Position numbers and translations under genes: made by a program | Shown: piece after piece, positions 57,311 to 57,526 of the stretch | Position numbering within the stretch: position 1 is the first letter of the stretch | How the letters are laid out: each line of letters starts with the position of its first letter | The notes under the pieces: generated by a model | Database searches by the model: none | What the model saw: only the letters and a program-made list of their open reading frames with translations | Told to the model about the DNA's origin: nothing | Origin: Escherichia phage vB_EcoS_SA80RD | Sequence record: OL960575.1 | Reading direction: 5' to 3' (one strand) | DNA: 59,778 nucleotides

Positions 57311-57340
57311 TGTGTACCCATCGAATAAGAGGGGTACACA
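57311..57340 (+). promoter_or_regulatory. RBS-occluding stem-loop upstream of small membrane protein gene
   Basis: TGTGTACCC (57311-57319) pairs with GGGTACACA (57332-57340); the 3' arm covers part of the AAGAGGGG RBS and runs to the ATG. Confidence 0.45.
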
Positions 57341-57526
57341 ATGACCAAACTATACGCCGGATTGTTTTTATTTGCGACGTTAATGTTCGCTGGGCTTTAT
57401 ACCTATACAGTAGTCGAACAACCTTCCACGGTTATCCGAATCTTTGCAAGTACAGGGCTTTGCATCTGTCTTATTCTATTTGTTTTATGTATTGTTATTA
57501 TCCAAGACCAAAGGAAAGTTAAATGA
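57341..57526 (+). CDS. small two-helix membrane protein
   Basis: 61 aa; two hydrophobic segments, basic C-terminus. Confidence 0.45.
   Translation: MTKLYAGLFLFATLMFAGLYTYTVVEQPSTVIRIFASTGLCICLILFVLCIVIIQDQRKVK

What the first reader, a model, noticed from the sequence alone, without database searches (positions are those of the whole stretch)
57311..57526. Ribosome-binding site of a small membrane protein gene is sequestered in a hairpin
TGTGTACCC at 57311-57319 is the exact reverse complement of GGGTACACA at 57332-57340, and the 3' arm covers part of the AAGAGGGG Shine-Dalgarno and runs up to the ATG at 57341. The encoded 61-aa protein has two hydrophobic helices. This arrangement resembles translational control of small toxic membrane proteins.
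Basis: seen in the sequence. Interest (0 to 1): 0.4.

Follow-up and report, generated by a model that had tools for sequence, protein, structure and literature searches.

The report
Start-codon hairpin overlapping a phage promoter
A strong, perfectly conserved RNA hairpin buries the start codon of a small membrane-protein gene in a Seuratvirus phage of E. coli, and a promoter-like sequence sits inside it, which looks like the known phage T4 way of keeping a gene silent on early read-through messages; this is a new example of a known mechanism and has not been tested experimentally.

Summary
The stem is 11 Watson-Crick pairs plus a G.U pair (57308-57319 with 57332-57343). It contains the whole ATG. 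Most of the Shine-Dalgarno sequence lies in the 12-nt loop. It is the most occluded start site of 98 in this Seuratvirus genome (18.8 kcal/mol to open, against a median of 5.1).

The block 57283-57349 is nearly invariant in about 45 genomes. These include two lineages whose small protein is only 46-49% identical to this one. Both arms never change, so there is no covariation, and an RNA role is inferred rather than shown.

The conserved part upstream of the stem reads TTGCTA-N18-TATTGT. Its -10 element is the 5' arm itself, so the predicted start (about A57320) gives an mRNA without that arm, which needs about 6 kcal/mol to open. The same layout occurs at a second gene (ATG 49968, minus strand).

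My best reading (confidence 0.45) is gating of the T4 gene e / I-TevI type: read-through transcripts are silent and promoter-proximal ones are translated.

I found no antisense RNA signals, so the analogy to type I toxin-antitoxin systems is unsupported. Whether the protein is toxic, and what it does, remain unknown.

Verdict: a new member of a known kind, of moderate interest.

The parts
57283..57349 (+). Conserved non-coding island: promoter-like region, hairpin, SD, ATG and the first codons
   Evidence: 64/66 identical to Salmonella phage STP-SP5, whose genome is 78% identical overall and whose adjacent small CDS differs at 41% of positions. Conserved again in the metagenomic relative L086, where the flanks are 67% identical or cannot be aligned.
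57284..57289 (+). -35-like hexamer TTGCTA
   Evidence: Invariant in the E. coli group and in STP-SP5. It is TTGCAA in L086, with a 17-nt spacer. Together with the -10 it scores 8/12 against the consensus, which is below the threshold of the scan tool.
57290..57307 (+). 18-nt promoter spacer
   Evidence: Every upstream substitution seen among the close genomes falls here (57293, 57294, 57300). L086 has many changes here and a spacer one nucleotide shorter.
57308..57313 (+). -10-like hexamer TATTGT, which is also the base of the 5' arm
   Evidence: Invariant in all sequences. The predicted +1 is A57320, 7 nt downstream; this rests on established sigma-70 promoter geometry and is an inference.
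57308..57319 (+). 5' arm of the hairpin (UAUUGUGUACCC)
   Evidence: RNAfold. The 12 pairs never vary.
57320..57331 (+). 12-nt loop AUCGAAUAAGAG, carrying most of the SD (AAGAGG, 57327-57332)
   Evidence: The loop varies: G57323A and a 1-nt deletion in VogelGryff, T57326C in STP-SP5, and 4 changes in L086.
57332..57343 (+). 3' arm (GGGUACACAAUG), containing the 3' end of the SD, the SD-AUG spacer and the AUG
   Evidence: The spacer TACACA is invariant although it has no coding or promoter role.
57341..57526 (+). Gene for a 61-aa protein with two transmembrane helices (phrog_22841, function unknown)
   Evidence: Only three 50%-identity clusters exist among 1.84 billion representative proteins.
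57523..57987 (+). HslV-like peptidase gene whose ATG overlaps the stop codon of the small gene (ATGA)
   Evidence: phrog_1040, E = 5e-32. The N-terminus MTTIAFDG is shared by 49 phage loci.
56829..57278 (+). Upstream gene (phrog_4049, weak similarity to C39 peptidases), the presumed source of read-through transcripts
   Evidence: No terminator-like site lies between 55133 and 58777 on the + strand.

Best explanation
The element is a cis-acting mRNA hairpin fused to a promoter.

On transcripts that read through from the upstream genes, the 12-bp stem (57308-57319 with 57332-57343) buries the AUG and the 3' end of the Shine-Dalgarno sequence of the 61-aa membrane-protein gene. 30S subunits therefore cannot initiate there.

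The DNA that encodes the 5' arm is also the -10 element and discriminator of a sigma-70-type promoter (TTGCTA-N18-TATTGT). RNA polymerase starting there (predicted +1 at about A57320, the first loop nucleotide) makes an mRNA that lacks the 5' arm. That mRNA has an open, normal ribosome-binding site.

The gene would therefore be translated only when its own promoter fires. This is the logic shown experimentally for phage T4 genes e, soc, 49 and I-TevI.

Shown here: the structure, its exceptional strength, its conservation, and the presence and conservation of the promoter-like hexamers. Inferred: that the RNA folds in vivo, that the promoter is active, where transcription starts, and when.
For: 1. 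Strength. The hairpin alone is -19.3 kcal/mol. Its opening energy of 18.8 kcal/mol is the highest of 98 starts (median 5.1).

2. Effect of the 5' end. Opening energy stays at 16-19 kcal/mol for 5' ends at or upstream of 57312. It drops to 6.3-6.4 for 5' ends at 57318-57322.

3. Conservation. The island runs from the -35 element to codon 3 in three lineages whose small proteins are 46-49% identical. All 6 variable positions among the close genomes lie in the promoter spacer or the loop. None lies in the hexamers or the arms. L086 keeps a TTGCAA -35 element at a 17-nt spacing although the spacer sequence has changed.

4. The SD-AUG spacer TACACA (+13 to +18) is invariant without any coding or promoter reason. 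Pairing with the 5' arm would explain this.

5. Recurrence. TTGCWA-N16-19-TATWGT occurs exactly twice in the window (0.41 expected), and both copies have an 18-nt spacer. The second copy (50018-49989, minus strand; listed by the promoter scan at 9/12) lies upstream of the only other strongly occluded real start, ATG 49968 (17.0 kcal/mol). There the 5' arm (an anti-SD CUCCUC) lies in the promoter spacer, and the predicted +1 lies between the arms. At that site the hexamers are kept in KS_A3 and SLUR75 while the arms are replaced.

6. Spacer enrichment. TTG-N21-TAnnnT (18-nt spacer) is enriched in intergenic DNA in the sense orientation: 11 sites, against 0-5 for other spacer lengths. Inside genes the distribution is roughly even.

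7. Read-through is plausible. No terminator-like site separates the gene from upstream + strand genes, and a near-consensus promoter lies at 55075-55103.

8. Precedent. T4 e, soc, 49 and I-TevI are described in PMC3014915, section 29.
Against: - There is no covariation. All 12 pairs are invariant in every sequence, so selection for pairing cannot be separated from selection for the sequence itself.
- The promoter match is only 8/12 with a suboptimal 18-nt spacer. The scan tool did not list it, and the tool's hit counts in that region do not exceed shuffles.
- The motif TTGCWA...TATWGT was defined after I had seen both sites.
- I found no transcription-start or expression data for any Seuratvirus in the literature searches.
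- With no single G-U-type change across three diverged lineages, something may be reading the sequence itself, such as a protein or the DNA.
- At the second site, the KS_A3/SLUR75 variant has only a weak, non-significant fold.
Confidence: 0.45

Rival explanations
1. The hairpin is a plain or trans-regulated translational throttle with no internal promoter. It keeps synthesis of the membrane protein very low on all transcripts, or holds it off until a trans-acting factor opens the stem. That factor could be a phage RNA-binding activator like Mu Com, an sRNA, RNA helicase activity, or a ribosome on a standby site using the SD exposed in the loop. This is closest to the first reader's view.
For: The occlusion is the strongest of 98 starts. 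The SD purines AAGAG are presented in the loop, as in standby or loop-presented SD designs. The conserved 25 nt upstream of the stem could be a binding site for a protein or an RNA. Complete invariance of the arm sequence would fit sequence-specific recognition.
Against: The upstream conservation has the pattern of a promoter: two conserved hexamers, with a spacer that varies in both sequence and length. The same motif recurs at the second hairpin. I identified no candidate activator gene. No antisense promoter or terminator is present, and there is no Rfam hit.
Confidence: 0.2
2. The element acts at the DNA level as an operator. The perfect inverted repeat (-12 to +24 relative to the putative start) would bind a dimeric phage or host regulator that represses or activates the promoter. 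On this view the RNA hairpin is a by-product.
For: The repeat overlaps the -10 element and +1, which is a classic operator position. Both arms are invariant while the centre varies, as expected for two half-sites. The same 9-bp repeat occurs in clusters of neighbouring copies in unrelated phage contigs L063, L071 and L073, where it looks operator-like. This phage also encodes a small HTH-like protein.
Against: Perfect symmetry over 11 bp per arm, kept in three lineages, is unusual for protein operators, which are normally imperfect. VogelGryff has a 1-bp deletion between the arms, which would rotate the half-sites relative to each other. The site occurs only once in the genome. The 3' arm coincides exactly with the SD end, the spacer and the AUG. 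The second site in the genome uses quite different arms, made of the SD and an anti-SD, which is RNA logic. The IMG/VR contigs carrying the same repeat share no homology with this phage, and I estimate about 8 chance matches for that pattern search.
Confidence: 0.15
3. The hairpin is an RNA processing or stability element: an RNase III site, or a hairpin that protects the 3' end of the upstream message or the 5' end of the downstream one. On this view, overlap with the start codon is incidental.
For: This genome has other strong, conserved intergenic hairpins, for example 4596-4628 upstream of the capsid gene and several terminators. Stable hairpins between cistrons are common in phage operons.
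Against: The stem of 12-14 bp is shorter than the roughly 20 bp of canonical RNase III substrates (established knowledge). No U-tract follows it, so it is not an intrinsic terminator. The exact overlap with the AUG is kept in three lineages.
Confidence: 0.08

Closest known systems
Phage T4 genes e (lysozyme), soc, 49 and I-TevI: start-site hairpins on early read-through transcripts, relieved by late promoters inside or just before the 5' arm (PMC3014915, section 29)
   Same: The hairpin sequesters the SD and/or the AUG. A promoter overlaps the DNA that encodes the 5' arm, so promoter-proximal transcripts lack that arm. The gene lies downstream of other genes on the same strand, with no terminator between. 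The gene sits next to the lysis genes.
   Different: The promoter here resembles a host sigma-70 promoter (TTGCTA-N18-TATTGT), not the T4 late TATAAATA read by gp55. The phage is an unrelated siphovirus (Seuratvirus, Queuovirinae). Nothing here has been tested experimentally. The regulated product is an uncharacterised 61-aa membrane protein.
Phage Mu mom/com translational activation
   Same: The start site is locked in a stem-loop. A conserved sequence lies immediately 5' of the stem, which in Mu is where Com binds.
   Different: I found no Com-like zinc-finger gene upstream or overlapping; the upstream gene is peptidase-like. The conserved 5' sequence has promoter architecture.
Type I toxin-antitoxin mRNAs (hok/sok, tisB/istR, and others)
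   Same: A small hydrophobic protein whose ribosome-binding site is sequestered by mRNA folding.
   Different: No antisense RNA signals were found. The protein has two transmembrane helices and 61 aa, rather than a single helix. The gene lies in a lytic-phage operon. No toxicity data exist.
Lambda S (holin) sdi stem-loop with a dual-start motif
   Same: An RNA stem-loop at the start site of a small phage membrane protein close to the lysis cassette.
   Different: There is a single start codon here. The next in-frame Met (codon 15) is not conserved in STP-SP5, where it is Met8. A canonical holin of another family lies 1.3 kb downstream (phrog_785).

Membership tests
T4 gene e-type promoter-in-hairpin translational gating | A hairpin pairs the SD and/or the start codon | tested here: met
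   12-bp stem containing the AUG and the G-run of the SD; -19.3 kcal/mol; highest opening energy of 98 starts.
T4 gene e-type promoter-in-hairpin translational gating | A promoter placed so that its transcripts lack the 5' arm | tested here: inconclusive
   TTGCTA-N18-TATTGT, with the -10 element inside the 5' arm and a predicted +1 at 57320. The hexamers are conserved in three lineages while the spacer varies. The match is only 8/12, the scan did not list it, and no transcription-start data exist.
T4 gene e-type promoter-in-hairpin translational gating | Longer upstream-initiated transcripts read into the gene | tested here: inconclusive
   Genes on the same strand lie upstream, no terminator-like site is present between 55133 and 58777, and an 11/12 promoter lies at 55075. 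Transcripts themselves were not observed.
T4 gene e-type promoter-in-hairpin translational gating | Different temporal classes for the upstream and internal promoters | not testable with these tools
   Needs time-resolved RNA data from infected cells.
Type I toxin-antitoxin system | A cis- or trans-encoded antisense RNA antitoxin with its own promoter and terminator | tested here: not met
   No promoter-like or terminator-like site on the minus strand in 57200-57600. There was no Rfam match except a chance-level CrcZ hit at E = 0.89.
Type I toxin-antitoxin system | A small hydrophobic toxic peptide | tested here: inconclusive
   61 aa with two transmembrane helices. Toxicity cannot be tested here.
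Intrinsic (Rho-independent) terminator | A GC-rich stem followed by a U-tract | tested here: not met
   The stem is followed by ACCAAACUAUAC, and the terminator scan did not report it.
RNase III processing site | About two helical turns (about 20 bp) of dsRNA | tested here: not met
   At most 12 + 2 bp.
Holin with dual-start/sdi regulation (lambda S type) | Two closely spaced in-frame start codons that give a holin and an antiholin | tested here: not met
   Only one ATG is present. The internal Met15 is not conserved. There is no Pfam or NCBIfam holin match. The PHROG family has unknown function.
Mu com/mom-type translational activation | An adjacent gene for an RNA-binding activator of the hairpin | not tested
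   The upstream neighbour is peptidase-like. I made no systematic search for RNA-binding proteins in the genome.

The most novel reading that the evidence does not exclude
All 24 arm nucleotides are invariant in three lineages whose flanking DNA is 33-41% diverged, without even a single G-U-type change. This could mean that the sequence itself is read, not just the pairing. A dedicated trans-acting factor of Queuovirinae would then recognise this hairpin or inverted repeat and switch on the lineage-specific membrane protein at a set time before lysis. The factor could be a Com-like translational activator, or a repressor or activator acting on a promoter that has a built-in RNA lock. That would be an undescribed regulatory circuit, and the small protein might be a lysis-timing or protease-anchoring factor.
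Probability: 0.15. Interest if true: 0.6.

Novelty: new member of a known kind. Interest (0 to 1): 0.38.

Why it matters
If confirmed, this would show that the T4 device of putting a promoter inside a hairpin that masks the ribosome-binding site is also used by an unrelated siphovirus group that relies on host-type sigma-70 promoters. That device lets one stretch of DNA give silent read-through RNA and translatable promoter-proximal RNA. It would be used at least twice in this genome.

It gives a concrete, testable handle on the temporal programme of Seuratviruses, for which my literature searches found no transcription data. These phages are used in the BASEL collection and in work on DNA modification.

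It also flags a Seuratvirus-specific 61-aa membrane protein, sitting just before an HslV-like peptidase gene and the lysis cassette, whose expression is unusually tightly guarded.

For annotation and phage engineering, the practical point is that this intergenic block should not be treated as a simple ribosome-binding site.

Tried and rejected
- **Covariation test.** I collected every relative I could find: 34 phage records, IMG/VR, metagenomes, the 5.8-billion word-indexed protein set and an HMMER scan of 1.84 billion representatives. Only three lineages exist and the stem never varies, so the test carries no information.
- **Known RNA families.** Rfam returned nothing at gathering thresholds for the whole window, and only a chance-level hit locally.
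- **Repeated element.** The arm and the upstream block each occur once in the window.
- **Terminator and RNase III site.** Rejected on anatomy.
- **Same hairpin in other phages.** A pattern search in IMG/VR gave 12 loci. Three are Seuratviruses. The other nine share no homology with the window by tblastx, and I estimate about 8 chance matches. They are therefore unrelated, although L063, L071 and L073 carry clustered copies.
- **Conserved partnership between the small membrane protein and the HslV-like peptidase.** Rejected. Across 49 loci the upstream neighbour varies. Pantoea phage Vid5 (L028) lacks the small gene. L086 has an extra 72-aa gene between the two. SeppeHuegi has a homing endonuclease inserted there.
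- **Function of the small protein.** Pfam, NCBIfam and PHROGs gave no named function.
- **Literature.** I found no promoter, transcription-start or transcriptome data for Seuratvirus.
- **Structured start site at the second locus in KS_A3/SLUR75.** Only a weak, non-significant fold was found.

Full report
**Context.** The window is essentially a complete genome of a Seuratvirus (Queuovirinae), a lytic siphovirus of E. coli. The 1.2-kb stretch around the finding (56800-58000) is about 98% identical to phages Dru_SM1, Greed, CAjan and Seurat. The finding lies in a run of + strand genes:
- a YAcAr/SLOG protein (55785-56177);
- two genes of unknown function;
- a peptidase-like gene (56829-57278; phrog_4049, with weak similarity to C39 peptidases);
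- a 62-nt gap;
- the 61-aa ORF (57341-57526; phrog_22841, function unknown);
- an HslV-like peptidase gene (57523-57987; phrog_1040), whose ATG overlaps the stop codon of the small gene;
- an 86-aa ORF;
- a canonical lysis cassette: endolysin 58334-58771, holin 58808-59152 (phrog_785), and spanins 59133-59606 and 59467-59769.

**The observation.** The repeat is longer than reported. The stem has 11 Watson-Crick pairs (57309-57319 with 57332-57342) plus U57308.G57343, so the entire AUG is paired. The SD core AAGAGG (57327-57332) lies mostly in the 12-nt loop, and only the G-run enters the stem.

The hairpin alone folds at -19.3 kcal/mol. A 9-bp inverted repeat is not rare in this genome (29 observed, 4.6 in shuffles). 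A perfect 11-bp stem with a loop of 20 nt or less is rare: 3 observed against 0.33 in shuffles. The other two are a hairpin upstream of the capsid gene and a terminator.

In a scan of 44-nt windows the hairpin ranks 14th on the + strand (-20.1 kcal/mol, against a mean of -6.4 +/- 3.5). I computed the energy needed to open -13..+3 at 98 putative starts. This gene ranks first, at 18.8 kcal/mol against a median of 5.1.

**The gene.** The 61-aa frame is the coding one. It is kept, with the same length, in STP-SP5. Differences fall 31/13/29 on codon positions 1/2/3, the pattern expected for a hydrophobic protein under selection. Hydropathy and an AlphaFold2 model give two helices (2-26 and 28-60, pLDDT 80). 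Lys3 and the C-terminal RK.K tail, which would lie on the same side of the membrane in a two-helix hairpin, carry most of the positive charge, but I did not run a topology prediction.

The family is tiny. An exhaustive HMMER scan of 1.84 billion representative proteins finds three clusters: the E. coli group, the STP-SP5 type (49% identity) and P0004 (46%). The more distant Queuovirinae phage Vid5 (L028) has the peptidase-like, SLOG and HslV-like genes without the small gene. Across 49 phage loci with an HslV-like MTTIAFDG protein, the upstream neighbour varies. The small gene with its leader is therefore a Seuratvirus-specific module. Its function is unknown.

**Conservation.** Against Salmonella phage STP-SP5 (78% identical over the aligned genome), the block 57283-57349 is 64/66 identical. 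The small CDS immediately downstream differs at 71 of 174 positions. The gap 57279-57340 is one of the three best-conserved intergenic regions of the genome.

The third lineage is a 7.5-kb contig from a public sequencing run (L086). It is syntenic. Its DNA is 67% identical upstream, and the alignment stops at ATG+3. Yet both hairpin arms are identical to the window, and the hairpin is significant on its own (z = -3.85, with 0 of 200 shuffles folding as well).

Among about 45 genomes, every variable position lies either in the 18-nt stretch between the two promoter-like hexamers (57293, 57294, 57300) or in the loop (57323, 57326, and a 1-nt deletion in VogelGryff). L086 adds 4 loop changes and many spacer changes. 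None of the 12 base pairs ever changes. This is the main limitation: with no stem variation there is no covariation, so RNA pairing as the selected property is inferred and not demonstrated.

**What the conserved upstream part is.** The island begins about 25 nt before the stem, so the hairpin alone does not explain it. It reads TTGCTA (57284-57289), 18 nt, TATTGT (57308-57313). These hexamers contain the six most informative sigma-70 positions (TTG and TA...T). The total match is only 8/12, below the threshold of the scan tool.

Three things raise my confidence that it is a promoter:
- The conservation pattern fits one. The hexamers are fixed, while the spacer is free in sequence and, in L086, one nucleotide shorter, with a TTGCAA -35 element retained.
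- The motif TTGCWA-N16-19-TATWGT occurs exactly twice in the window, against 0.41 expected, and both copies have an 18-nt spacer. The second copy (50018-49989, minus strand; listed by the scan at 9/12) lies directly upstream of the only other strongly occluded real start, ATG 49968 (17.0 kcal/mol). In KS_A3 and SLUR75 that second promoter keeps TTGCAA and TATTGT, although the sequence between and after them is replaced.
- TTG-N21-TAnnnT with an 18-nt spacer is enriched in intergenic DNA in the sense orientation: 11 sites, against 0-5 for spacers of 14-20 nt. Inside genes the distribution is roughly even.

I defined the motif after seeing both sites, so these statistics are suggestive rather than decisive.

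**Mechanism.** With the -10 element at 57308-57313, standard promoter geometry puts +1 at A57320. That is the first loop nucleotide, immediately 3' of the last base of the 5' arm. I computed opening energies for different 5' ends:

| 5' end of the transcript | Energy to open -13..+3 (kcal/mol) |
|---|---|
| 57200-57312 | 16-19 |
| 57318-57322 | 6.3-6.4 (close to the genome median) |

Read-through RNA would therefore be essentially untranslatable at this cistron, while promoter-proximal RNA would be normal. The stability difference of about 13 kcal/mol implies a difference of two orders of magnitude or more in initiation; this is my inference from published thermodynamic models of initiation.

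The second site has the same topology with unrelated arms. Its 5' arm (AUGGCUCCUCUU, an anti-SD) lies in the promoter spacer. Its predicted +1 (A49982) lies 4 nt before the 3' arm (AGGAGGAGCUAU, which contains the SD and the AU of the AUG). That gene encodes a soluble 67-aa HTH-like protein, so the design is not tied to membrane or toxic products.

This is the logic established for T4 genes e, soc, 49 and I-TevI. There, early read-through transcripts carry an inhibitory hairpin, and late promoters lying in the DNA for its 5' strand give translatable mRNA. For gene e the reported effect is 100-fold (PMC3014915, section 29).

**Rivals.**
- Hairpin without an internal promoter. It would be either a constitutive throttle or a lock opened by a trans-acting factor, as in Mu com/mom. 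I cannot exclude this. The SD purines are displayed in the loop, and the absolute invariance of the arms could reflect sequence-specific recognition.
- DNA operator. The repeat spans -12 to +24, and two invariant arms with a variable centre would fit two half-sites. Against this, perfect 11-bp symmetry kept in three lineages is unusual for operators. VogelGryff tolerates a 1-bp deletion between the arms. The site is unique in the genome. The 3' arm coincides exactly with the SD end, the spacer and the AUG.
- Processing or stability element. This is disfavoured by the stem length and by the conserved overlap with the AUG. An intrinsic terminator is excluded because no U-tract follows the stem.
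- Type I toxin-antitoxin analogy. It fails on the antisense RNA criterion.

**Comparison and novelty.** Nothing in the accessible literature describes promoters, transcripts or this element in Seuratviruses, and Rfam has no model for it. In kind, however, it is a known device. I class it as a new member of a known kind: a version, driven by a host-type sigma-70 promoter, of the T4 arrangement of a promoter inside a hairpin that masks the ribosome-binding site. It sits in an unrelated siphovirus lineage and probably occurs twice per genome.

**Verdict.** Interest is moderate (0.38). The structure and its conservation are solid. The mechanism is plausible and cheaply testable, but the promoter and the RNA-level function are inferred, and the protein's role is unknown. 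The most novel reading not excluded is that a dedicated factor reads the invariant sequence, acting either as a translational activator or as an operator-binding regulator (probability about 0.15).

Noticed in passing
window 49765-50018 (minus strand): A second promoter-in-hairpin start site. TTGCAA-N18-TATAGT (50018-49989) overlaps a hairpin of -18.8 kcal/mol (50012-49969), in which an anti-SD CUCCUC pairs with the SD and AU of ATG 49968. The gene encodes a 67-aa soluble HTH-like protein (phrog_11967) just upstream of the primase. The stretch from the -35 element to the ATG is identical in CAjan although the flanks are 76% identical. KS_A3 and SLUR75 keep the hexamers but replace the arms.
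   Followed up: partly
window 4582-4703: The intergenic region upstream of the major capsid gene is 96% identical to STP-SP5. It holds a perfect 11-bp hairpin (4596-4606 with 4618-4628, about -21 kcal/mol). A consensus TTGACA sits at 4583, and a poor -10 candidate (TAAGTT) lies in the loop. This may be a third promoter-and-hairpin arrangement, but it is about 75 nt from the ATG.
   Followed up: no
window 33880-33939 (minus strand): A good promoter-like site (TTGTAA-N18-TATAAT, 10/12) is followed within a few nucleotides by a terminator-like hairpin, GAAAGCGCC...GGCGCUUUC plus UUUUU. This resembles promoter-terminator pairs that depend on antitermination. The region is 90% conserved against STP-SP5.
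   Followed up: no
whole window, intergenic regions: Promoter-like TTG...TAnnnT sites in intergenic DNA strongly prefer an 18-nt spacer: 18 of 57 sites over spacers of 14-20 nt, and 11 of 24 in the sense orientation within 120 nt of a gene. Inside genes all spacer lengths are about equally common. This suggests a phage promoter class with an unusual spacing.
   Followed up: partly
L081 (Escherichia phage SeppeHuegi) 624-1160, equivalent to window ~57523: An HNH homing-endonuclease gene is inserted exactly at the start codon of the HslV-like gene and takes over the ATGA overlap with the small gene. The displaced HslV-like reading frame (ITTIAFDG) has no ATG, GTG or TTG in frame after the preceding stop. 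It may use a non-canonical start such as ATC preceded by GGGGGTGGG, or it may be inactive. The record annotates a truncated CDS.
   Followed up: partly
L063 6149-6180, L071 5133-5164, L073 3229-3260 (IMG/VR contigs of 59-65 kb): Unrelated phage contigs carry the same 9-bp inverted repeat, TGTGTACCC-N14-GGGTACACA. Further near-copies lie immediately alongside (for example TGTGTACCCATTT...GGGTACATA), giving an operator-like cluster. They show no tblastx similarity to the window.
   Followed up: partly
L013-L061 (49 IMG/VR loci): HslV-like peptidases with an invariant N-terminus MTTIAFDG (a presumed N-terminal Thr nucleophile) are widespread in phage contigs of many sizes, including jumbo phages of the SPN3US type. 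In many loci the upstream gene ends in the ATGA overlap that the Met-Thr start makes possible. In L017-L019 that upstream gene is a 43-aa ORF with one transmembrane helix.
   Followed up: partly
L086 3177-3395: In the third lineage, a 72-aa soluble ORF with no PHROG match lies between the small membrane-protein gene and the HslV-like gene. It is translationally overlapped with both.
   Followed up: no
window 52219-52262: The strongest local RNA fold in the window (-27 kcal/mol on the + strand) lies inside a minus-strand gene (51836-52450), close to the divergent-transcription region.
   Followed up: no
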